Shown piece by piece: positions 5,454 through 52,351 of a stretch of DNA of 64,000 bases. Under the pieces are notes generated by a model. The model saw only the letters and a list, made by a program, of their open reading frames with translations. It ran no database searches and was not told the DNA's origin. Source of the DNA: Escherichia coli (GTDB taxonomy: Bacteria > Pseudomonadota > Gammaproteobacteria > Enterobacterales > Enterobacteriaceae); assembly GCF_965641715.1 (NCBI RefSeq), contig NZ_OZ282453.1, one strand, 5' to 3'. A program made the translations under genes and the position numbers. Within the stretch, counting starts at the first letter, position 1. Each line of letters begins with the position of its first letter.

Positions 5454-8855
<3,402 letters not shown>

Positions 8856-27617: not shown

Positions 27618-27863
27618 ACCTTTTTTCTCCTGTAAATAAAAAAGAGCCACCAGCGGCCCACCAAAAAACACCCCGTCAAAGACACCTGCACCCACAGATG
27701 CCTTTTGTGTGGTGTTATTCAGATTTGCGCAGTAAAGGCCAGAGAACAACCATCACCATCGCTACCAGCACGCCATCAGCCAGAACCGACATCAGCCGTC
27801 CGGCAAAATCTACTGCCACTACCAGAAACAGCAGGATGGCAGCCAGCACAAGACGTGCACTTT

Positions 27864-28289
27864 TCACAGATACTGCTCCAGTGGTAACTGAAGCGCCTGT
27901 GCAATTTTCTTGAGCTGCGCTTCTTCATCCGGACTAATGCTATCCTGGTCAGCGATATCCAGACAGAGGCACAGTACGTCAACCGCCTCTGTTGTCCCTG
28001 CCACGTCAGCCAGCTGACGGAGGGCTTCAGCATTGGCAGAACGCGGGGATGCTTCATAACGGGCGCGGATATTGGCGCTCATCTGGGCAATCTCACCTGA
28101 GAACAGCGCAAAGGCCGGAAGTGCTGCAATGGTTTTCTCCAGCACTGCGATTTCTTTCGCGTCGCAGGTACCGTCAGCATATGCAATGGAATATGCGCCC
28201 CAGACGGTCGCTTCCACCGCATCGCGATTTTCCATCTTCTTCACCTCAACAATCGCCTTGCAGGTTTTCTTTTTGAAAATACCAAACAT
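27864..28289 (-). CDS. Hypothetical late-region protein (possible TerB-like fold)
   Basis: 141-aa ORF from MFGIFKKKTC with RBS; acidic helical protein; TerB assignment is a guess from composition only. Confidence 0.4.
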   Translation of the reverse strand: MFGIFKKKTCKAIVEVKKMENRDAVEATVWGAYSIAYADGTCDAKEIAVLEKTIAALPAFALFSGEIAQMSANIRARYEASPRSANAEALRQLADVAGTTEAVDVLCLCLDIADQDSISPDEEAQLKKIAQALQLPLEQYL

Positions 28290-28462
28290 CGTGACGTTTC
28301 CTTTTAGTGGGAGAGCCTCGCCCCGGGATGAGCAGCCCACAGAGAAAGTCACACCGACCATCCCGTAAGCTCCCCCCCCCTGAAAGGCTCTGTGGTTTTT
28401 GATGTGCACCGGACGTGGCGCGGATATGAAAAAAGCTCGCAGTAGCGGGCCTGGCTACAGGC

Positions 28463-28488
28463 AAAAAAATACCCGTCCGGAGACGGGC
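28463..28488 (-). terminator. Rho-independent terminator (minus strand)
   Basis: Minus strand GCCCGTCTCCGGACGGG hairpin followed by TATTTTTTT. Confidence 0.5.
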
Positions 28489-28533
28489 TAACACATTCAA
28501 CATGTAAGAGTGGAACAGCGTTTATTTTAAGTA

Positions 28534-28620
28534 TGGTCGCCGCCAGAATGAGTCGTCAGATTGCAACGCAATTCTGGCAAATCGCAGGCACCAAAACAGG
28601 CAACGACTCATTCTGGCAAC
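28534..28620. repeat. 15-bp perfect inverted repeat (GCCAGAATGAGTCGT / ACGACTCATTCTGGC) with nested alternative pairing and direct repeats, followed by a T-run
   Basis: Read directly: arms at 28534-28548 and 28595-28609; ATTCTGGCA and GGCAACGAC each occur twice. Confidence 0.7.
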
Positions 28621-28773
28621 GACTTTTTTCCAATAACGCAACTTCATGAACAAAAAAAAGAACAGCACTGTATCCGCTATTGCAGAATGGAGAACAATAA
28701 AAAACCTGAACTATTATTCAACTCGGAAAACCGCCAGTGCTGTAAAAGTCCGTCAGAAATAAAACAATGAAGT

Positions 28774-28850
28774 TGTGGAGAACAGGAATCGAACCTGCAT
28801 CGCCAACCCAGAAGGCTGCGGTAATAGCTACTATACGATACCTGAATAAA
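28774..28850 (-). tRNA. tRNA-like sequence, probably a 3' fragment or pseudo-tRNA (canonical T-arm, no acceptor stem found)
   Basis: Minus strand GCAGGTTCGATTCCTGT T-arm preceded by CCTTCTGG; no complementary 5' acceptor strand could be found by eye. Confidence 0.3.
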
Positions 28851-29358
28851 GAGCAGGCCTCCGTAACCACAATAATGATACTGATAACAGACCTTCAATA
28901 TGATTGAACGGAAGCCTACAATGAACCGCAAGACAGCGGGGAACACCGCTGTGAACATAAACTTGCTGTCTTCCGGGTCGGGAGTAATATTACCGATAAT
29001 TCATATGACATCAAAAACTAATTAGTTTTCAGATTTAAAAATATGTATAAATCTGTATCAATTACATACAGTTTATGTTATTCCATCCAGAATTCTGATT
29101 TCGCACAGGAGATTGCGTAAAAACTAACACAAATATAAACGATTTGGGAACACACTGATTCAGTTGTCGCAATAAATAACAGGAAACACTCCGGGAATAA
29201 CAGATCGCAAGACTTACATCAGCAGGAGTTTTTGCAACATTTAACGTTAATTGTATCGTTGATAGAAAATCTATGACGCAATATGGTGAACTAACAGAGC
29301 CTGACGAATATCCCAATTACGCCGAGCTAATAGCGCTGCCAGCTAAACTTGCATGGAA

Positions 29359-29435
29359 TGGTCCGCCACCGGGTGCTCGAACCTCGCACAATCAACTTAG
29401 AAGGCTGATGCTCTATCCAGATGAGCTGGTGGCGG
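29359..29435 (-). tRNA. tRNA-Arg (anticodon UCU)-like, phage-encoded; T-stem imperfect
   Basis: Acceptor stem CCGCCAC/GTGGCGG, D-arm GCTC-ATCTGGATA-GAGC, anticodon loop CTTCTAA, 3' ACCA; two mismatches in the T-stem. Confidence 0.55.
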
Positions 29436-29437
29436 AA

Positions 29438-29513
29438 TGGTGGCCCTTGCTGGATTTGAACCAGCGACCTGGCGATTATGAGTCGCTCGCTCTAACCACT
29501 GAGCTAAAGGGCC
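29438..29513 (-). tRNA. ileZ: tRNA-Ile2 (anticodon CAU, ileX/ileZ-like), phage-encoded
   Basis: Minus strand GGCCCTTTAGCTCAGTGGTTAGAGCGAGCGACTCATAATCGCCAGGTCGCTGGTTCAAATCCAGCAAGGGCCACCA is near-identical to recalled E. coli tRNA-Ile2. Confidence 0.85.
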
Positions 29514-34850: not shown

Positions 34851-35240
34851 TCAGGCGGCTGCACCCGCCGGTTTCTCATACTTACTGATAGTGATCTCGA
34901 CCTTCCCTTTCGGGATAACCGGTCCCCACTCCACCAGCATTCTTTTCACCTGTCTGTCGTCTTCCCACACACCCGCGTGGGTCAGGGCGTCAAACAGCGC
35001 CTTGTTATAGTTGTCCAGATCGCGGATCCGGTTATCCGGAGGAAACAACACGATCTCCACTGAAGCAGGTGCCGACGTTGGTTTCGGCAGACGACGTAAC
35101 TGCTCAACTATTGCTGCGCATGCCGCGCTCTGGAATTTGCGCCCCGCTGCGCTTATCAGACTCTTACCAGCAAACGCCCCTTTGTTGGGGTGTCGCCAGT
35201 ACGTGTTCACGCTGGGCGGGAAAGGCAGGATCAGCTTCAT
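34851..35240 (-). CDS. rusA: Holliday junction resolvase RusA
   Basis: 129 aa starting MKLILPFPPSVNTYWRH with conserved acidic residues (DLDNYNKALFDAL). Confidence 0.9.
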   Translation of the reverse strand: MKLILPFPPSVNTYWRHPNKGAFAGKSLISAAGRKFQSAACAAIVEQLRRLPKPTSAPASVEIVLFPPDNRIRDLDNYNKALFDALTHAGVWEDDRQVKRMLVEWGPVIPKGKVEITISKYEKPAGAAA

Positions 35241-35563
35241 ACTTTCAGGCCCCTCTCATGTAACCAGTGGGCTGCACGCAGTCTGGCGTTTTCCTCACCG
35301 GCAAGCAGTGCGCGGATAATCCCGGCTGCCTCGCTGTCGTCGTCCTTCACTGTGGTATGAAGCGTGATACCCCGGGCCACGCCACGCTTTATCGTGATGA
35401 CGCCTTTTTTCTCCAGTGCGCGAAGATGCTCCACCGCTGCATTCACCGAACGGTATCCCAGCATGGCTGCCACCTCCTGATTGGTTGGCGGGAAACCACG
35501 TTCTTTCTGATAAGAAATCAGCATATCCAGCACCTGCTGCTGGCATTGAGTTAACGTCGTCAT
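35237..35563 (-). CDS. LexA-type winged-helix DNA-binding protein
   Basis: LTQCQQQVLDMLISYQKERGFPPTNQEVAAMLGYRSVNAAVEHLRALEKKGVI resembles the LexA N-terminal domain. Confidence 0.6.
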   Translation of the reverse strand: MTTLTQCQQQVLDMLISYQKERGFPPTNQEVAAMLGYRSVNAAVEHLRALEKKGVITIKRGVARGITLHTTVKDDDSEAAGIIRALLAGEENARLRAAHWLHERGLKV

Positions 35564-36057
35564 TAAGCCCCCACGTAATTCCCTGACAGATACCACTCAT
35601 CACCCGATACAGCGCGCTTGCTGCTTTTCCGTAAACACTGCTCACGACGCGCCAGAAAATTGTTTCGTTCTGGCTGGGAGTGGCTTTCACGGAATGCCGC
35701 CATCCACACCGTTGCAGCACGACGGTATAAGCCCCTGGACTCCAGTTCTTCAGCCTGGCGGGTCAGGCACAAAATCACACGGGGATCGTTAGTGCCGACA
35801 TAGAAATTGCGCACAGGTCTGGTTTCACGAACAGATTGTGGTTCCGGCTCCTGCGCTCTCTCAGTCAGGCGCGGGAAATGTCTGCGTGTATCTCCTTCAC
35901 AACGGTGAGCCACACGCCCACTCTGACGTAACTTGCTTGCTGACTGCAGAACGCGCTGCCGTGAGTAACCAGCAAAAGCATCCGCAATGTCTCCGGAAGT
36001 ACACCCCGGATGGGCTTCAATGAATTTCTGAACTTCATTCAAAAGACTCATAATCAC
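35563..36057 (-). CDS. PerC/ANR-like transcriptional regulator
   Basis: C-terminal QAEELESRGLYRRAATVWMAAF motif, PerC-like. Confidence 0.45.
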   Translation of the reverse strand: MIMSLLNEVQKFIEAHPGCTSGDIADAFAGYSRQRVLQSASKLRQSGRVAHRCEGDTRRHFPRLTERAQEPEPQSVRETRPVRNFYVGTNDPRVILCLTRQAEELESRGLYRRAATVWMAAFRESHSQPERNNFLARREQCLRKSSKRAVSGDEWYLSGNYVGA

Positions 36058-36872
36058 CCCCTGAATCCTGCCGGGATCTGGCTGTAGTCCACGTTGTCGT
36101 AACTGGCTTTGAAGTACGGGTCCTCGCGTCTGGCTGCAGATACCGCAGGAACTTCCCAGGATTCTTCGAAATGACGATCCGGACCAAAGAACGTGACAGC
36201 CTGTTTCACAAATTGTGTGCCGCTGTTACCCATCGCAGATACCCAGCCCGCGTAGCGTTTCACACCTTCCAGCATGGTTTCGGGGTTTACCCCCTCATTC
36301 AAACGGGCTTTCCAGGCTTTGAAGGCTGCAGATTTTGAATTACCACCAGCACGTTTGGGATATGCCAGCCATGCCTGCTCAAACTCCGGAGAGTATTCCG
36401 GCCGGTTTGAACGAACTCGCACGGACTCATCAACTGATGCACCAACAGCTATTGGTTCATTGACTGGTTCTTTGACTGGTTCAAAAGAGTGACTGGTTCT
36501 GGGTGAATCTCCTGCACTACCCCCTGGTGCAACTCCTGCACTACCTGGTGAATTTGCTGCACCAGATAGTGAATTATTTGCACTACCCCCTAGTGAATCT
36601 CCTGCACCATCCAGATGAAGGAGATAGATATTACTTGAGTTACCTTTTTCACCTTTCCGGGTGACTTTTTTTACCAGCCCGGACTCACAAAGGGCCGCAA
36701 TATGATTCATCACAGAACGTTTGCTAATCTCGCACTGGTCAGCAATATGCTGGTAGCTGGGCCAGCACTCACCCTGATCGCTGGCATTATCAGCCAGCTT
36801 GATCAGAACCAGTTTTCGCAATGGATTACCCACTCGAATTTTCATCGCTTTAACCATCAGCTCCATACTCAT
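36054..36872 (-). CDS. Phage replication protein (N-terminal HTH, C-terminal DnaT-like domain)
   Basis: N-terminal HTH (SYQHIADQCEISKRSVMNHIAAL); C-terminus ends DYSQIPAGFRG, like host DnaT (QIPPGFRG) at 57453. Confidence 0.7.
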   Translation of the reverse strand: MSMELMVKAMKIRVGNPLRKLVLIKLADNASDQGECWPSYQHIADQCEISKRSVMNHIAALCESGLVKKVTRKGEKGNSSNIYLLHLDGAGDSLGGSANNSLSGAANSPGSAGVAPGGSAGDSPRTSHSFEPVKEPVNEPIAVGASVDESVRVRSNRPEYSPEFEQAWLAYPKRAGGNSKSAAFKAWKARLNEGVNPETMLEGVKRYAGWVSAMGNSGTQFVKQAVTFFGPDRHFEESWEVPAVSAARREDPYFKASYDNVDYSQIPAGFRG

Positions 36873-37105
36873 GCTGCACCTCCGAGATGCTTCATGTTTT
36901 TTCCGGAGCGAAAGGTTATAAGCGGCATACTGACGCGGTAATTACGGCCCAGCGGTTCACAAATCACCTTCTGACATTCACGGTCCACCAGGCTAACACG
37001 TAGAACATGCCCTGCGGGCGTGGTGTACCACTGACCAACGGTAGGAATTGATGTTTTTTTACGCTGAAGCAAACGGCAAATATTGAGGATCAACGGATTA
37101 AGCAT
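36869..37105 (-). CDS. Hypothetical protein
   Basis: 78-aa ORF translationally coupled (ATGA overlaps) within the early-right operon. Confidence 0.4.
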   Translation of the reverse strand: MLNPLILNICRLLQRKKTSIPTVGQWYTTPAGHVLRVSLVDRECQKVICEPLGRNYRVSMPLITFRSGKNMKHLGGAA

Positions 37106-37934
37106 GACGATGCCCTCCGCTGATATTCAGGAAACGGTGAATATGAAGATTAGCCTTATCCGCCAGACGAATACGTTCAGCCTGCAAGTTAAGAAGGGTT
37201 TCTACCAGAACCTGATGCGCCTGCGGATCCGAAAGAGTTACCTTGCGCAGAGCACGTAGTGCAGTTGTTACATAGCTGAGTTTATGTAAGTCTTCATCAT
37301 TCAGACGAGTGAGGGCTGGGACAGTAGCCATGATGGCAGCCTCCGTATGCAATGGATAACTTCCACCACCGGAAACGCCAATTTCGCTGGTGGTGAACTG
37401 AGCAGGGTTGGCGTAACCGGCGCATACGGAAACCGGCGCACCTTTCGGTGCCCCCACCCAGCCCACCATAATTTGGGTATAGCTGAGTTGTAGCAACAAA
37501 AAAGACGCTAACGCGCCAATTGTCGCCGTATGCAATTCCAGGACGCCAATCCCGGCACCCGCTTTATAAGGTGCCTGAACAGTGTAACGTCCCGGAATGG
37601 CAGAATCAATGTGCTGGTGGTCCTTCACACTCAACAAAATCACGCCTGAATTTCCACAAAGGGCTAAAGCACTCATGCGGGTAGTCTTTGCGAAGATAGA
37701 TAACGCGCTGTGTTTCTGGTTCCCAACGAATAACATGGACATAAAGCCCTCTTCCGTCACGAAACCAGCGGTTAAGTTCCCGCACAACTCGCCCCCCACA
37801 GTCAGGTAAAGTTCTCTGTGGTTACTTACAGCCAGGTGATTTGGTAATCTGCATTCATGCCGTAACAACAGGTGTTCAGCGACACTGACCACCAGCTGTT
37901 GCGACAAACGGTTATTTGCCGTTAAACTGTTCAT
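37098..37934 (-). CDS. Hypothetical early-right operon protein (YdaU-like by position and size only)
   Basis: 278-aa ORF coupled to flanking genes; no motif recognised. Confidence 0.5.
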   Translation of the reverse strand: MNSLTANNRLSQQLVVSVAEHLLLRHECRLPNHLAVSNHRELYLTVGGELCGNLTAGFVTEEGFMSMLFVGNQKHSALSIFAKTTRMSALALCGNSGVILLSVKDHQHIDSAIPGRYTVQAPYKAGAGIGVLELHTATIGALASFLLLQLSYTQIMVGWVGAPKGAPVSVCAGYANPAQFTTSEIGVSGGGSYPLHTEAAIMATVPALTRLNDEDLHKLSYVTTALRALRKVTLSDPQAHQVLVETLLNLQAERIRLADKANLHIHRFLNISGGHRHA

Positions 37935-38494
37935 GCGTTAGTTTCTCCACAGACACAAAACGCCACGACGCCCGGAGCTGCACACTCGCGGGCGTCACTC
38001 TTTTCTGGAGCGCAAAAGATTTTGTAGACCAGTGCTGCATGCTCTTGGAGCTTCGAAATTGACAGATACAACTCATCATTAATTGCTGTCTGCTCGTGTG
38101 GCTCCACGACCCCATCTTCGATTGCCGAACGAATCTGCTTTGAGTAATTCCCGATCTGTTCGATGACTTCCAGCAGGCGCTGGTTTATATCGGCGTTCTC
38201 TACTTCCTCAATTTCAGGAAGCGATACGAACACCCCACCAGCAGACTGTGCGACAGCATCCGCAATGTAGTGAGTGCCAGCCGCGCGCTGTAAAACCATT
38301 GCCCATCCCAGCGGGAAAATCTGATCGCCATCGGCACGAAGGCGGTTAAATAATGCGTTCTCTGTTACATCCAGCCAGTCAGCTGCTTCAGCGTAACCAC
38401 CCGGCAACGCTGCGATAGTTTTTCTGACAGCTTTCACGTACCACTCAGGCTGTTTTTCTACTTTCCAGTGATACTTACCCACGGTTAGCCTCAT
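37931..38494 (-). CDS. Hypothetical regulator (CII/YdaT-like by position)
   Basis: 187-aa ORF 32 bp downstream of the cro-like gene. Confidence 0.45.
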   Translation of the reverse strand: MRLTVGKYHWKVEKQPEWYVKAVRKTIAALPGGYAEAADWLDVTENALFNRLRADGDQIFPLGWAMVLQRAAGTHYIADAVAQSAGGVFVSLPEIEEVENADINQRLLEVIEQIGNYSKQIRSAIEDGVVEPHEQTAINDELYLSISKLQEHAALVYKIFCAPEKSDARECAAPGVVAFCVCGETNA

Positions 38495-38525: not shown

Positions 38526-38726
38526 TTAATCTTTCGGATAGATATCCGGCCTTAAGTCAGATTTCGTAATTGCACCTGACGTGCATTGCTCAAGTTTTTT
38601 CGCCAGCACAAAACTGGCTTTTTTATAACCATTGAAAACCAGCCGTAAGTAGCCAGGTGTTGAGCCAACTTTTCCGGCCAACTCGCCCTGCTGTTCTTTG
38701 GTTAAAGAGTCCCAATACGCTTTCAT
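38526..38726 (-). CDS. Cro/YdaS-like HTH regulator
   Basis: 67 aa starting MKAYWDSLTKEQQGELAGKVGSTPGYLRLVFNG; GGAGG RBS; divergent from cI. Confidence 0.75.
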   Translation of the reverse strand: MKAYWDSLTKEQQGELAGKVGSTPGYLRLVFNGYKKASFVLAKKLEQCTSGAITKSDLRPDIYPKD

Positions 38727-38816: not shown

Positions 38817-39491
38817 ATGAAAACAATCCATGACATCCGGCGGTCTAACGCCAGAAAACTGAGAGATGGTGTTGGCGGGAATTCTTCCTTTGCCACCATG
38901 ATTGATCGCGAGCCAACCCAGACCAGCAGGTTTATGGGAGATGGTGCTACTAAAAATATCGGTGACAGCATGGCGCGGCACATCGAAAAATGTTTCGACC
39001 TGCCTGTCGGATGGCTTGATCAAGAACACCAGACCACGAACATCACAAAAAAACCTGATGTTTCAATCACTAACAAACAAATAACGTTAGTCCCTGTCAT
39101 ATCATGGGTACAGGCCGGAGCATGGAAAGAAGTTGGCTATTCTGAGGTTGATTTGAGCACAGCAGAAACTTACCCCTGCCCTGTACCCTGTGGCGAAATG
39201 ACTTATATCTTGCGGGTGATTGGTGATTCAATGATTGATGAGTACCGCCCTGGAGACATGATTTTTGTTGATCCCGAAGTCCCTGCCTGCCACGGTGACG
39301 ACGTTATTGCATTGATGCACGATACAGGCGAAACCACCTTCAAGCGATTGATAGAAGATGGAACACAGCGTTATCTCAAAGCATTAAACCCAAACTGGCC
39401 TGAGCCTTACATTAAGATTAACGGTAATTGCTCTATAATTGGTACAGTGATTTTCTCGGGAAAACCAAGAAGATACACAATAAAGGCCTAA
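38817..39491 (+). CDS. cI: CI-like repressor (HTH + S24 LexA-type autopeptidase domain)
   Basis: N-terminal HTH, C-terminal GDSM serine motif and downstream Lys; divergent from cro-like gene. Confidence 0.85.
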   Translation: MKTIHDIRRSNARKLRDGVGGNSSFATMIDREPTQTSRFMGDGATKNIGDSMARHIEKCFDLPVGWLDQEHQTTNITKKPDVSITNKQITLVPVISWVQAGAWKEVGYSEVDLSTAETYPCPVPCGEMTYILRVIGDSMIDEYRPGDMIFVDPEVPACHGDDVIALMHDTGETTFKRLIEDGTQRYLKALNPNWPEPYIKINGNCSIIGTVIFSGKPRRYTIKA

Positions 39492-51724: not shown

Positions 51725-51905
<181 letters not shown>

Positions 51906-52028
51906 TAGTCTCCTGATGGACATTTTTCCAGCAATTACACATCAGGCGATAATTAACTATTGACGAAAAGCTGAAAACCACTAGAATGCGCCTCCGTGGT
52001 AGCAATTCTTTTTAAGAATTGATGGTAT

Positions 52029-52115
52029 GCGAAGGTGGCGGAATTGGTAGACGCGCTAGCTTCAGGTGTTAGTGTCCTTACGGACGTGGGGGTTCAAGTC
52101 CCCCCCCTCGCACCA
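52029..52115 (+). tRNA. leuQ: tRNA-Leu (CAG)
   Basis: GCGAAGGTGGCGGAATTGGTAGACGCG...GGTTCAAGTCCCCCCCCTCGCACCA, 87 nt, first of three tandem copies. Confidence 0.95.
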
Positions 52116-52143
52116 AAAACCACGTTGATATTGCTCGCACTGG

Positions 52144-52230
52144 GCGAAGGTGGCGGAATTGGTAGACGCGCTAGCTTCAGGTGTTAGTGTTCTTACGGAC
52201 GTGGGGGTTCAAGTCCCCCCCCTCGCACCA
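52144..52230 (+). tRNA. leuP: tRNA-Leu (CAG)
   Basis: Second tandem copy, one nucleotide different in the variable arm. Confidence 0.95.
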
Positions 52231-52264
52231 AACGAGGCGATATCAAAAAAAGTAAGATGACTGT

Positions 52265-52351
52265 GCGAAGGTGGCGGAATTGGTAGACGCGCTAGCTTCA
52301 GGTGTTAGTGTCCTTACGGACGTGGGGGTTCAAGTCCCCCCCCTCGCACCA
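52265..52351 (+). tRNA. leuV: tRNA-Leu (CAG)
   Basis: Third tandem copy. Confidence 0.95.

What the first reader, a model, noticed from the sequence alone, without database searches (positions are those of the whole stretch)
36869..38494. Three consecutive unrecognised early-right genes between cro-like and the replication gene
ORFs of 187, 278 and 78 aa are translationally coupled (ATGA-type overlaps) in the position where lambdoid phages encode cII and O. None carries a motif I can recognise. The 278-aa protein is the largest unassigned early protein and could be a replication initiator, a toxin or an anti-defence factor.
Basis: seen in the sequence. Interest (0 to 1): 0.3.

Follow-up and report, generated by a model that had tools for sequence, protein, structure and literature searches.

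The report
RNA immunity switch hidden in ORF
The largest "unknown protein" between the phage's cro and replication genes is mostly not a protein gene: it hides a small conserved gene in another reading frame and a P1/P4-type antisense-RNA immunity switch that most likely gates a 77-residue protein and the replication genes behind it.

Summary
The three ORFs (187, 278 and 78 aa) exist at 36869-38494, but on the minus strand. They sit in an e14/SfV-type prophage early operon found in thousands of E. coli genomes. They are not unrecognisable.

- **187 aa:** YmfL, a CII-type regulator (Pfam Phage_CP76, NCBIfam YmfL).
- **278 aa:** a composite, not one gene.
  - Its 5' third overlaps a 59-aa DUF4222 gene in another frame. 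Only that other frame is under purifying selection.
  - Its middle, the Pfam "Ash" domain, coincides with two full-length Rfam RNAs: isrK (37574..37498) and C4 antisense RNA (37473..37386).
  - C4's two unpaired segments pair with one site pair inside isrK and a second pair downstream. One downstream site covers the Shine-Dalgarno of an ORF starting at residue 202.
  - Across 10 related phages the C4 segments and both target pairs co-vary (7 and 4 specificity types).
  - In P4, the Ash model hits the obsolete "cI protein" ORF lying over the CI RNA.
- **77 aa:** the real protein behind C4, an orphan helical hairpin.
- **78 aa:** a small conserved barrel-like protein abutting the replication gene.

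Verdict: a new member of a known kind (P1 immI, P4 CI, Gifsy-1 IsrK), mis-annotated as protein. Moderate interest.

The parts
37931..38494 (-). ymfL: CII-type regulator. 187 aa from the ATG at 38494; PGAP uses the GTG at 38482, giving 183 aa.
   Evidence: Pfam Phage_CP76 E=1.2e-14 (54.8 bits, cut-off 26); NCBIfam YmfL equivalog E=1.9e-50 (170 bits, cut-off 90); phrog_101 'CII-like transcriptional activator' E=7.5e-73. PGAP names it ymfL.
37098..37934 (-). The 278-aa open frame (SfV orf37, 'ash family protein'). A composite that spans the parts listed below; not one protein gene.
37606..37785 (-). DUF4222 small protein gene (59 aa, GTG start), in a different frame from the 278-aa ORF.
   Evidence: Pfam DUF4222 E=1.1e-13 (50.9 bits, cut-off 27). 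PGAP annotates it in the 100%-identical genome and in K-12. Synonymous:nonsynonymous codon changes are 22:5 in this frame against 0:27 in the 278-aa frame. It is a stand-alone gene in Serratia, Yersinia and Escherichia phages.
37581..37609 (-). Candidate promoter of the RNA module: -35 TTGATT at 37609..37604, 17-nt spacer, -10 TACACT at 37586..37581, start near 37574.
   Evidence: Read from the sequence. It matches only 8 of 12 consensus positions and was not reported by the scan. Strong promoters sit at the same distance from isrK in phi330, phi296 and Stx2a_JNE, and at the P4 PLE position.
37498..37574 (-). isrK-like sRNA (equivalent to P4 seqA and the P1 a1/b1 leader). Carries target b1 (37549..37543), target a1 (37533..37526) and an intrinsic terminator (37517..37504 plus T6).
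   Evidence: Rfam RF01394, 61.2 bits (gathering 50), full length 1-77. Terminator found by scan. Complementarity to C4.
37386..37473 (-). C4-type antisense RNA (equivalent to P1 c4 and P4 CI RNA).
   Evidence: Rfam RF01695, 80.7 bits (gathering 45), full length 1-87. 97.1% of cells paired; 13 of 28 pairs with compensatory double changes; 0 of 500 shuffles as high.
37340..37381 (-). Downstream C4 targets: b2 (37381..37375) and a2 (37351..37340). a2 covers the Shine-Dalgarno GGAGG at 37344..37340.
37098..37331 (-). Cargo ORF of 77 aa (residues 202-278 of the 278-aa frame), with GGAGG, 8 nt, then ATG. Orphan two-helix hairpin protein.
   Evidence: The start codon context ATGGCTACT is conserved and shared with Rha/Ant cargoes in sibling phages. 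One database cluster is annotated as a free-standing 77-aa protein. The exhaustive search finds only near-identical copies plus two clusters at 46-48% identity. AlphaFold pLDDT 82.6, helices 12-29 and 36-71. No significant fold match.
36869..37105 (-). orf38-type small protein (78 aa), coupled by ATGA to the replication gene.
36054..36872 (-). Replication initiator (context, downstream gene of the same operon).
   Evidence: Pfam HTH_36 E=1.8e-11 and a sub-threshold DnaD_N match (24.3 bits, cut-off 27); phrog_270 'replication initiation protein' E=1.7e-88.
38526..38726 (-). cro-like ymfT (context, first gene of the operon).
   Evidence: PGAP ymfT in the identical genome; phrog_35 E=1.7e-15; Pfam YdaS_toxin match below its cut-off (25 bits, cut-off 30, E=1.7e-5).

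Best explanation
The stretch 38494..36869 (minus strand) is the middle of the early operon of an e14/SfV-type temperate phage.

Gene order: cro (ymfT), then ymfL (CII-type regulator), then a 59-aa DUF4222 protein, then an RNA immunity module, then a 77-aa helical-hairpin protein, then a 78-aa small barrel protein, then the replication initiator.

The '278-aa protein' is an open frame that happens to run, or is kept running, across the DUF4222 gene (in another frame), the RNA module and the 77-aa gene.

The RNA module works like P1 immI and P4 immunity. A promoter just upstream makes an isrK-like leader RNA that mostly ends at its own terminator. Read-through transcripts carry the C4-type RNA, which is presumably cut out as in P1 and P4.

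C4's loop (a') and junction (b') pair with sites b2 and a2 just downstream. a2 covers the ribosome-binding site of the 77-aa gene, so C4 blocks its translation. By loss of translational coupling and by polarity, C4 thereby also blocks expression of the 78-aa gene and the replication gene that overlap behind it.

The isrK-like RNA carries decoy copies of the same sites (b1, a1) and can modulate C4.

Shown here: the RNA homology, the structure covariation, the target complementarity and its co-variation, the overlap with the ribosome-binding site, and which frame is under selection.

Inferred: expression in the lysogen, processing, repression in trans, and the effect on the replication genes.
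For: RNA families: Rfam isrK (61.2 bits, gathering 50) and C4 (80.7 bits, gathering 45), both full length, lie inside the ORF exactly where Pfam 'Ash' maps (aa 117-210 = nt 37586..37305).

C4 structure: 97.1% of cells paired, 13 of 28 pairs with double compensatory changes, 0 of 500 shuffles as high, slid controls 37-49% paired.

Targets: C4 nt 44-52 pair with 37533..37526 and 37350..37342; C4 nt 60-66 pair with 37549..37543 and 37381..37375. The a2 site overlaps GGAGG, which lies 8 nt before the ATG at 37331.

Co-variation: across 10 variants there are 7 a' types and 4 b' types. Own a'-a2 duplexes are 11-12 nt in 8 of 10 variants, against 4-9 nt between different types.

Presence and absence: isrK plus C4 occur in 9 of 9 loci with the 'Ash' stretch and in 0 of 4 loci without it.

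The Ash family: in P4 the Ash model hits the obsolete 'cI 137 aa' CDS at aa 22-85, which encloses the C4/CI RNA at 8507..8420; P4 epsilon is a different family, PF25738. In phi296 the model matches the translated isrK alone, and the proven-RNA P1 c4 region gives a weak collinear hit. Loop indels of 4 and 2 nt (phi330, phi296) and in-frame stops (P1) break the 'Ash' frame.

DUF4222: Pfam E=1.1e-13. Substitutions fall at its third codon positions (for example 5/1/25). Synonymous:nonsynonymous is 22:5 in its frame, against 0:27 in the 278-aa frame.

Other support: terminator at 37517..37504; promoter position conserved across contexts; P1's curated layout is promoters, a1 b1, c4, a2 b2, icd, ant. 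Gifsy-1 isrK-orf45-anrP is experimentally characterised (PMC4825925). The equivalence of IsrK/C4 with P4 seqA/CI, and its presence in lambdoid prophages, is stated in PMC3632133.
Against: There are no expression data for this locus.

The candidate promoter is weak (8 of 12 consensus matches) and was not called by the scan.

The b' duplexes are only 7 nt, and in SfV the b2 site has a mismatch.

The cargo is not an antirepressor, and its function is unknown.

The long frame has no stop codon across the whole module in all 7 distinct early-operon variants, more than random substitution predicts. So some translation through the RNA genes is likely, and a protein product containing the 'Ash' segment cannot be excluded.

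In Gifsy-1 the demonstrated role of IsrK is activation in trans, and the role of the C4-like RNA there is unresolved.

Control of the replication genes is inferred only from overlapping stop and start codons and from the P4 analogy.
Confidence: 0.72

Rival explanations
1. The 278-aa ORF is a genuine single 'Ash family' regulatory protein, as annotated for SfV orf37 and in most phage records. The RNA matches would be secondary, or embedded in a coding gene.
For: The frame is open for 278 codons and starts with an ATGA overlap on ymfL. Pfam Ash and several PHROGs labelled 'transcriptional regulator' match. The frame is kept free of stops in 7 variants. In the Rha/Ant sibling phages the same frame runs into the antirepressor domain.
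Against: There is no protein-level constraint in the first third: 0:27 synonymous:nonsynonymous where DUF4222 has 22:5. There is no coding signal upstream either (7/12/13). The conserved middle is explained by two RNA families with stem covariation and loop-target co-variation. Relatives have 2- and 4-nt loop indels and stops in this frame. The family's namesake is P4's obsolete cI ORF lying over the CI RNA. A strong Shine-Dalgarno and a conserved ATG sit at residue 202. The PHROG labels trace back to that same P4 annotation ('transcriptional repressor').
Confidence: 0.1
2. The module is real but gates only its own cargo (the 77-aa protein). The replication genes are expressed independently of C4 from pR transcripts.
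For: In P1, Gifsy-1 and the Stx phages the C4/isrK module controls an antirepressor-type cargo, not replication. The 78-aa gene has its own strong Shine-Dalgarno (GGAGGG, 7 nt, ATG).
Against: The cargo, the 78-aa gene and the replication gene overlap by 8 and 4 nt, with no terminator or promoter found between them. In P4 the homologous RNA does control the downstream replication gene by premature termination (P4 literature as summarised in PMC4825925 and PMC3632133).
Confidence: 0.25
3. The RNA module is a decayed relic of an antirepressor cassette (the antirepressor was replaced by a 77-aa remnant) and no longer functions.
For: The cargo is an orphan with a very narrow distribution. The promoter is weaker than in other contexts.
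Against: Both RNAs are full length and score as well as those of active phages. The a'-a2 duplex is a perfect 12 nt in the window. The same arrangement is kept in isolated, plaque-forming phages (Ayreon, SfV, 2H10, Stx2c phages) and in about 500 E. coli genomes at 80% coverage or more. The 77-aa ORF is intact with a strong Shine-Dalgarno and folds confidently.
Confidence: 0.05

Closest known systems
Bacteriophage P1/P7 immI: c4 antisense RNA, icd, ant
   Same: Same order of parts on one transcript: promoter, upstream target pair, C4 RNA, downstream target pair over the ribosome-binding site of the first ORF, then translationally coupled downstream genes (for P1; for the window). Same Rfam family and same three-helix structure.
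   Different: The cargo is a 77-aa helical hairpin with no similarity to Icd, and no Ant follows. The module sits inside the cro-cII-replication operon of a lambdoid phage rather than in a separate immunity region. The upstream targets lie in an isrK-type RNA with its own terminator.
Satellite phage P4 immunity: PLE, seqA, CI RNA, seqC, then epsilon, orf151, alpha
   Same: The isrK-like element plus the C4-like RNA are found in the same order and spacing, with a promoter at the same distance. The module lies upstream of the replication gene, so it may gate replication as CI RNA does in P4. The same Pfam 'Ash' artefact lies over the RNA.
   Different: P4 has no protein repressor, whereas here a LexA-like cI (ymfK) and a cro are also present, so the RNA would be a second layer. 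Premature termination was not tested here.
Salmonella Gifsy-1 isrK-orf45-anrP (PMC4825925)
   Same: isrK sRNA with a leaky terminator, then an ORF beginning at the AUG at the 5' end of the C4-like RNA (orf45; the window's ATG at 37469), coupled to or fused with the cargo. The in-frame fusion of orf45 to the cargo seen here is also reported there for S. dysenteriae.
   Different: The cargo there is the antirepressor-like AnrP, whose start 'MAT(I/V)P..' is shared with the window's cargo for only 8 residues. The genomic position also differs.
E. coli K-12 e14 prophage ymfT-ymfL-ymfM-ymfN, and Shigella phage SfV orf36-orf37-orf38
   Same: The same immunity region: ymfK/cI, ymfT/cro and ymfL are 88-97% identical at the DNA level. 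SfV carries the identical gene set. e14 ymfM is homologous to the first ~100 codons of the 278-aa frame, and e14 keeps the DUF4222 ORF (66% identity).
   Different: e14 lacks the isrK/C4 module, the 77-aa gene and the 78-aa gene; there DUF4222 abuts the truncated replication gene directly. SfV has a different a' specificity.

Membership tests
C4 antisense RNA (Rfam RF01695; P1 c4 / P4 CI type) | Covariance-model score at or above the curated gathering score, over the full length | tested here: met
   80.7 bits against 45; model positions 1-87 of 87.
C4 antisense RNA (Rfam RF01695; P1 c4 / P4 CI type) | Outer stem plus two inner hairpins, maintained by compensatory changes | tested here: met
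   11 sequences including P1 c4 and P4 CI: 97.1% of cells paired, 13 of 28 pairs changed on both sides, 0 of 500 shuffles as high, slid controls 37-49%.
C4 antisense RNA (Rfam RF01695; P1 c4 / P4 CI type) | Two unpaired segments, each complementary to one site upstream and one site downstream on the same transcript | tested here: met
   a' pairs with a1 (9 nt) and a2 (12 nt); b' pairs with b1 and b2 (7 nt each). The sites co-vary across 7 a' types and 4 b' types.
C4 antisense RNA (Rfam RF01695; P1 c4 / P4 CI type) | A downstream target overlaps the ribosome-binding site of the first downstream ORF | tested here: met
   a2 (37351..37340) includes GGAGG at 37344..37340, 8 nt before the ATG at 37331.
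C4 antisense RNA (Rfam RF01695; P1 c4 / P4 CI type) | Made in the lysogen from its own promoter, processed (RNase P in P1 and P4), and represses in trans | not testable with these tools
   Only a candidate promoter (TTGATT, 17 nt, TACACT), at the position of stronger promoters in relatives, and a conserved 3' CACCACC(A) tail.
C4 antisense RNA (Rfam RF01695; P1 c4 / P4 CI type) | The controlled gene is an antirepressor (icd-ant, anrP) | tested here: not met
   The window's cargo is a 77-aa orphan with no similarity to Icd, no Pfam family, and only two PHROGs (4908 'unknown function', 3960 'transcriptional regulator'), neither an antirepressor family. Sibling phages with the same module do carry Rha/Ant cargo.
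isrK sRNA (Rfam RF01394; P4 seqA equivalent) | Covariance-model score at or above gathering, and an intrinsic terminator at the 3' end | tested here: met
   61.2 bits against 50; positions 1-77 of 77. Hairpin at 37517..37504 followed by T6.
CII of phage 186/CP76 type; YmfL family | Profile score above the curated cut-offs | tested here: met
   Pfam PF06892, 54.8 bits against 26. NCBIfam NF041471 equivalog, 170.3 bits against 90.
CII of phage 186/CP76 type; YmfL family | Encoded directly after cro in the rightward early operon | tested here: met
   ymfT/cro at 38726..38526, then ymfL at 38494..37931.
CII of phage 186/CP76 type; YmfL family | Activates lysogeny-establishment promoters | not testable with these tools
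   No relative with a solved structure by sequence. ymfL over-expression does not cause filamentation (bioRxiv 10.1101/2020.11.19.390815).
Pfam PF10554 'Ash protein family' | HMM score above the gathering cut-off | tested here: met
   64 bits against 26; aa 117-210.
Pfam PF10554 'Ash protein family' | The matched segment is a protein domain, that is, conserved as protein | tested here: not met
   The segment is the isrK plus C4 plus a2/b2 region. The P4 namesake hit is the obsolete cI CDS over the CI RNA, and P4 epsilon is PF25738. The frame is broken by 2- and 4-nt loop indels and by stops in relatives.
DUF4222 (PF13973) | HMM score above the cut-off, and purifying selection in that frame | tested here: met
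   50.9 bits against 27. Third-position excess (5/1/25) and 22:5 synonymous:nonsynonymous.
Phage replication initiator (lambda O / DnaD-like), as proposed for the 278-aa ORF | Profile similarity to replication-initiator families | tested here: not met
   None of the three ORFs hits such a family. The adjacent 272-aa ORF does: HTH_36 above its cut-off, a sub-threshold DnaD_N match, and phrog_270 at E=1.7e-88.
YmfM (e14 cell-division inhibitor) | Sequence similarity to K-12 YmfM | tested here: met
   33% identity over 101 aa with gaps, E=8e-8.
YmfM (e14 cell-division inhibitor) | That frame is conserved as protein in the window's version | tested here: not met
   0:27 to 3:34 synonymous:nonsynonymous in the part overlapping DUF4222. 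No third-position excess upstream in the window type (7/12/13). The e14/Klebsiella type does show one (14/16/29 and 5/4/14).

The most novel reading that the evidence does not exclude
The 278-codon frame may be kept open on purpose. On lytic (pR) transcripts, ribosomes that re-initiate at the ATGA junction with ymfL, or at internal starts, would translate straight through the isrK terminator, the C4 sequence and the a2/b2 targets. That would melt these structures in cis, so the phage's own induced transcripts escape the RNA immunity that blocks transcripts starting at the module's promoter or coming from a superinfecting phage. The 'Ash' peptide would then be a by-product of a translational override of an antisense-RNA switch.
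Probability: 0.15. Interest if true: 0.6.

Novelty: new member of a known kind. Interest (0 to 1): 0.4.

Why it matters
**Annotation.** A segment labelled 'ash family protein', 'immunity region', 'transcriptional regulator' or 'Rha/Ash fusion' in hundreds to thousands of E. coli, Shigella and Salmonella prophage annotations is, for the most part, a pair of regulatory RNAs. Pfam PF10554 appears to be modelled on translated RNA. It has been used as a marker for P4 epsilon and discussed as a domain of unknown function in Stx-phage 'Eru' replication regions.

**Biology.** e14/SfV/Stx2c-type phages would have a second, RNA-based immunity layer placed directly in front of their replication genes. 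Its specificity loops are exchangeable (7 a' types and 4 b' types among 10 phages). This bears on superinfection exclusion, on induction, and on Stx-phage replication control.

**A testable doubt.** The analysis raises the question of which product of the K-12 ymfM locus (SfiC) actually inhibits cell division.

Tried and rejected
- **Replication initiator, toxin or anti-defence reading of the 278-aa ORF.** No Pfam, NCBIfam or PHROG support. PADLOC was not run, because the RNA result made it moot.
- **Rac YdaT/YdaU comparison.** No YdaT-family hit for any of the three ORFs; only ymfT resembles YdaS.
- **P1 Icd as a homolog of the 77-aa cargo.** No alignment. The 'Icd-like' labels seen come from DNA similarity in the C4 region.
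- **P4 epsilon as the Ash namesake** (as implied in bioRxiv 10.1101/2021.03.30.437493). Rejected: epsilon is PF25738, and Ash hits the old cI ORF.
- **Programmed -1 frameshift joining the YmfM frame to DUF4222.** Considered and rejected, because the DUF4222 frame is closed 3 nt upstream of its start in ST64B, Stx1_499 and mEp390.
- **The search for related loci with the DUF4222 protein.** Returned only 97-98% identical copies and was of no use for divergence analysis.
- **Function of the 77-aa protein.** Word-indexed and exhaustive protein searches found no informative relatives, and Foldseek against PDB gave only generic helical hairpins.
- **78-aa protein as a DUF4222 paralog.** Only weakly supported: BLASTP E=0.013, PHROG cross-hit E=0.008, hhalign E=8e-4 but probability 24%. 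Left as inconclusive.
- **afdb50 fold library.** Unavailable.
- **YmfL against solved structures.** No hit.
Full report
**1. Observation**

The three ORFs exist with the stated lengths and outer limits, but on the minus strand: 38494..37931 (187 aa), 37934..37098 (278 aa) and 37105..36869 (78 aa). Read from the sequence, the junctions are:
- ATGA between the 187- and 278-aa ORFs;
- an 8-nt overlap, ATGCTTAA, between the 278- and 78-aa ORFs;
- ATGA between the 78-aa ORF and the replication ORF (36872..36054).

Upstream lie a cro-like gene (38726..38526) and a divergent LexA-like repressor (38817..39491).

**2. Where it comes from**

The 3.6 kb around the finding is 99.8% identical to a prophage of E. 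coli O25b:H4, and the finding's own 1,626 bases are 100% identical to it. Parts of it match in 3,119 of 5,426 complete E. coli genomes, and 491 genomes hold at least 80% of it. It is 98.9% identical to phage Ayreon and 96.5% identical to Shigella phage SfV, where the three ORFs are orf36, orf37 ('immunity region') and orf38. The repressor, cro and first ORF are the ymfK, ymfT and ymfL genes of the K-12 e14 element. So the genes are not unrecognised.

**3. The 187-aa ORF**

It is YmfL:
- Pfam Phage_CP76 (CII of the phage 186 type), E=1.2e-14;
- NCBIfam YmfL equivalog, E=1.9e-50;
- phrog_101 'CII-like transcriptional activator', E=7.5e-73.

The activity itself is inferred. No solved structure is related by sequence.

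**4. The 278-aa ORF is a composite**

*(a) The first third overlaps a DUF4222 gene in another frame.*

PGAP annotates the identical E. coli sequence differently from SfV. It calls a 59-aa 'DUF4222' gene at 37785..37606 in another frame, plus a 181-aa 'ash family protein'.
- The 59-aa ORF matches Pfam DUF4222 at E=1.1e-13, above the cut-off. The first 97 codons of the 278-aa frame match no Pfam family.
- Those codons are homologous to K-12 YmfM (33% identity with gaps, E=8e-8). The DUF4222 frame over the same DNA is 66% identical without gaps (E=4e-27).
- Across nine loci, substitutions fall on DUF4222 third codon positions (K-12 versus a Klebsiella phage: 5/1/25).

| Frame (K-12 vs Klebsiella phage) | Synonymous : nonsynonymous codon changes |
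|---|---|
| DUF4222 | 22 : 5 |
| 278-aa / YmfM | 0 : 27 |
| +2 control | 2 : 25 |

- Upstream of the overlap, the window type shows no coding periodicity (7/12/13).
- In distant phages (Serratia BZS1, Yersinia YeP3, Fraca, CharmingMan) DUF4222 is a stand-alone gene abutting the replication gene, and the other frame is closed.

*(b) The middle is an RNA module.*

| Rfam family | Window coordinates (-) | Bits | Gathering | Model coverage |
|---|---|---|---|---|
| isrK (RF01394) | 37574..37498 | 61.2 | 50 | 1-77 of 77 |
| C4 antisense RNA (RF01695) | 37473..37386 | 80.7 | 45 | 1-87 of 87 |

The Pfam 'Ash' match (aa 117-210) corresponds to nt 37586..37305, which is exactly isrK plus C4 plus the next ~80 nt.

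The isrK part ends in a hairpin plus T6, found independently by the terminator scan.

C4's 12-nt loop and its 3' junction are complementary to two site pairs:
- upstream, inside isrK: b1 at 37549..37543 and a1 at 37533..37526;
- downstream: b2 at 37381..37375 and a2 at 37351..37340.

The a2 site covers GGAGG, which lies 8 nt before the ATG at 37331. That ATG is residue 202 of the long frame.

This is the layout curated for P1: promoters, a1 b1, c4, a2 b2, icd, ant.

*(c) Comparative tests.*

- isrK and C4 occur together in 9 of 9 related loci that have the 'Ash' stretch, whatever the cargo, and in 0 of 4 loci that lack it.
- On 11 C4 sequences, including P1 c4 and P4 CI, 97.1% of cells pair and 13 of 28 pairs carry double compensatory changes. 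No shuffle out of 500 reached this, and slid controls were 37-49% paired.
- The RNA segment is a divergent cassette in conserved flanks. Stx2c phages are 96% identical overall but 73.9% identical here.
- Among ten variants there are seven a' loop types and four b' types, and a1, a2, b1 and b2 change with them. Own a'-a2 duplexes are 11-12 nt in eight of ten variants, against 4-9 nt between different types.
- A sigma-70-type promoter sits at the same distance from the isrK 5' end in all contexts:

| Locus | -35 | Spacer | -10 |
|---|---|---|---|
| Stx2a_JNE | TTGACT | 17 | TATATT |
| phi330 / phi296 | TTGACG | 18 | TATATT |
| P4 (PLE position) | TTGCCT | 18 | TATAGT |
| window | TTGATT | 17 | TACACT |

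The window's version is weak. Its -35 overlaps the DUF4222 stop codon, and the scan did not call it.

*(d) What 'Ash' is.*

- In P4, the Ash model hits the old 'cI gene product (AA 1-137)' CDS at aa 22-85 (nt 8521..8330). This encloses the Rfam C4 match at 8507..8420, the CI RNA.
- P4 epsilon belongs to a different family, PF25738.
- P4 also has isrK at 8692..8615.
- In phi296, Ash model positions 1-39 match the translation of the isrK sRNA alone.
- The P1 c4 region, a proven RNA with in-frame stops, gives a weak collinear hit with Ash the only family listed.
- phi330 and phi296 have 4- and 2-nt deletions in the a' loop that break the frame.

So PF10554 largely models a translated RNA locus. 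The PHROG labels 'transcriptional regulator' and 'repressor' trace to the same P4 annotation. I found no paper that makes this link.

*(e) The real protein at the 3' end.*

The 77-aa ORF at 37331..37098 shares its start context (ATGGCTACT, 'MAT(V/I)P..LT') with the Rha/Ant antirepressor cargoes of sibling phages. It diverges from them after 8 residues.
- It is an orphan. The searches found near-identical copies, one of them annotated as a free-standing 77-aa protein, plus two clusters at 46-48% identity.
- It is predicted as a two-helix hairpin (pLDDT 82.6), with no informative fold match.
- It has no similarity to P1 Icd.
- The conserved AUG at the 5' end of C4 (37469) corresponds to the start of Gifsy-1 orf45. 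Here that ORF is fused in frame to the cargo, as reported for S. dysenteriae.

**5. The 78-aa ORF**

- It belongs to a small family of consistently 74-78-aa proteins in E. coli, Salmonella, Citrobacter and Enterobacter (phrog_1153).
- It has a strong Shine-Dalgarno (GGAGGG, 7 nt, ATG).
- It is predicted as an N-terminal helix plus a small beta-barrel (pLDDT 77.8).
- A relationship to DUF4222 is suggested but not established: BLASTP E=0.013, PHROG cross-hit E=0.008, hhalign E=8e-4 with probability 24%.
- Both small proteins sit immediately upstream of a replication gene in one phage or another, which hints at a link with replication. I could not test this.

**6. How it most likely works**

*Shown:* the anatomy, the structure covariation, the target co-variation, the occlusion of the ribosome-binding site, and which frame is under selection.

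*Inferred, by analogy with P1 c4 (record annotation), P4 CI RNA (as summarised in PMC4825925 and PMC3632133) and Gifsy-1 IsrK:*
1. The module's promoter makes isrK-like RNA, which mostly terminates.
2. Read-through transcripts yield C4.
3. C4 pairs with b2 and a2 and blocks translation of the 77-aa gene.
4. The 78-aa gene and the replication gene overlap it by 8 and 4 nt, and no promoter or terminator was found between them. Loss of translation should therefore reduce their expression by uncoupling and polarity, as CI RNA does for P4's replication gene.
5. The isrK-like RNA carries decoy sites and can modulate C4.

This would give the prophage an RNA-based second immunity layer, with exchangeable specificity, in front of its replication genes.

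**7. What remains unexplained**

In all seven distinct early-operon variants, the cargo frame has no stop over the ~250 nt upstream, through C4, the spacer and isrK. The other two frames hold 28 and 17 stops.

Random substitution at the same sites would keep the frame open with probability 0.04-0.32 per variant. The combined values are roughly 1e-4.8 for the whole module and 1e-3.1 for the isrK part, both overstated by shared history.

The C4-to-cargo part is expected from the orf45 coupling shown in Gifsy-1. Openness through isrK is not. Translation through the module may therefore be functional; see the novel case.

**8. Comparison and novelty**

The kind is known. Barquist et al. state that IsrK and C4 are the structural homologs of P4 seqA and CI RNA, and that some lambdoid prophages carry IsrK-C4 systems (PMC3632133). 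The Gifsy-1 module has been dissected experimentally (PMC4825925).

New here:
- the placement of this locus inside the cro-cII-replication operon of e14/SfV-type phages;
- a non-antirepressor cargo;
- the demonstration that the 'Ash' protein annotation and Pfam family correspond to the RNAs;
- the catalogue of co-varying specificities;
- the hidden DUF4222 gene.

I rate it a new member of a known kind, of moderate interest.

Noticed in passing
L004 (E. coli K-12 NC_000913.3) 8002-8181 = genome 1204001-1204180, overlapping ymfM (1203822-1204160): K-12 ymfM, curated as the 'cell division inhibitor' (SfiC), overlaps a 59-aa DUF4222 ORF with a strong AAGGAG Shine-Dalgarno and a TTG start. PGAP annotates that ORF instead of ymfM in another K-12 assembly. 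In the overlap only the DUF4222 frame is under purifying selection (22:5 against 0:27). The N-terminal ~58 codons of e14-type YmfM do show third-position excess (14/16/29 and 5/4/14). In the passages I read, the published pBAD-ymfM clone and the ymfM deletion appear to affect both products and no frame-specific mutants are mentioned, so which one causes filamentation is open.
   Followed up: partly
L106 (phage P4 NC_001609.1) 8168-8584 (-), and Pfam PF10554: The P4 record still carries 'cI gene product (AA 1-137), transcriptional repressor' over the CI RNA, and Pfam Phage_ASH matches that ORF. A P4-satellite survey used PF10554 as its profile for epsilon, although epsilon matches PF25738. An Stx-phage study lists 'Rha/Ash domain' proteins as of unknown function. 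These are probably C4-controlled antirepressors with the RNA leader translated into the annotation.
   Followed up: yes
window 37300-37600 compared with L100 (Stx2c_2409), L002 (SfV), L088 (ST64B): The RNA module is a divergent cassette inside conserved flanks: 96% identity across the whole 3.6-kb region against 73.9% within the module. The combinations are mosaic; for example Stx2c has the ST64B-type a' with the window-type b'. This suggests recombination and diversifying selection on immunity specificity.
   Followed up: partly
window 37098-37934 (-) and the same frame in L002, L088, L089, L100, L101, L102: The long frame is free of stop codons across isrK, its terminator and C4 in all seven early-operon variants, while the other two frames hold 28 and 17 stops. 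Copies in the nin region (phi330, phi296) and in P1 do not keep it open.
   Followed up: partly
L095-L098 (phages CharmingMan, BZS1, Fraca, YeP3); L004 8002-8181; window 36869-37105: DUF4222-type small genes sit immediately upstream of, and overlap the start of, the replication-initiator gene in many unrelated temperate phages. In the window that position is taken by the 78-aa gene. This suggests a conserved functional pairing with the initiator.
   Followed up: no
window 27767-29513 (-) and 51807-52351: Three tRNA genes (Arg-tct twice, Met/Ile-cat) lie inside the prophage. A cluster of three tRNA-Leu(cag) genes and a naRNA4 match (51889..51807) lie in what is probably flanking chromosome.
   Followed up: no
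L103 (phage phi330) 1905-1988: There is an Rfam sRNA-Xcc1 match (73.5 bits, gathering 53) between two antirepressor genes, downstream of that phage's isrK/C4 module.
   Followed up: no
window 35237-36057 (-): Downstream of the replication gene, the operon continues with a PerC-family regulator (164 aa) and a protein consisting of a LexA DNA-binding domain only (119 aa). In the related genome a Dam methylase lies between these two genes, and RusA, KilA-N and DUF968 genes follow.
   Followed up: no
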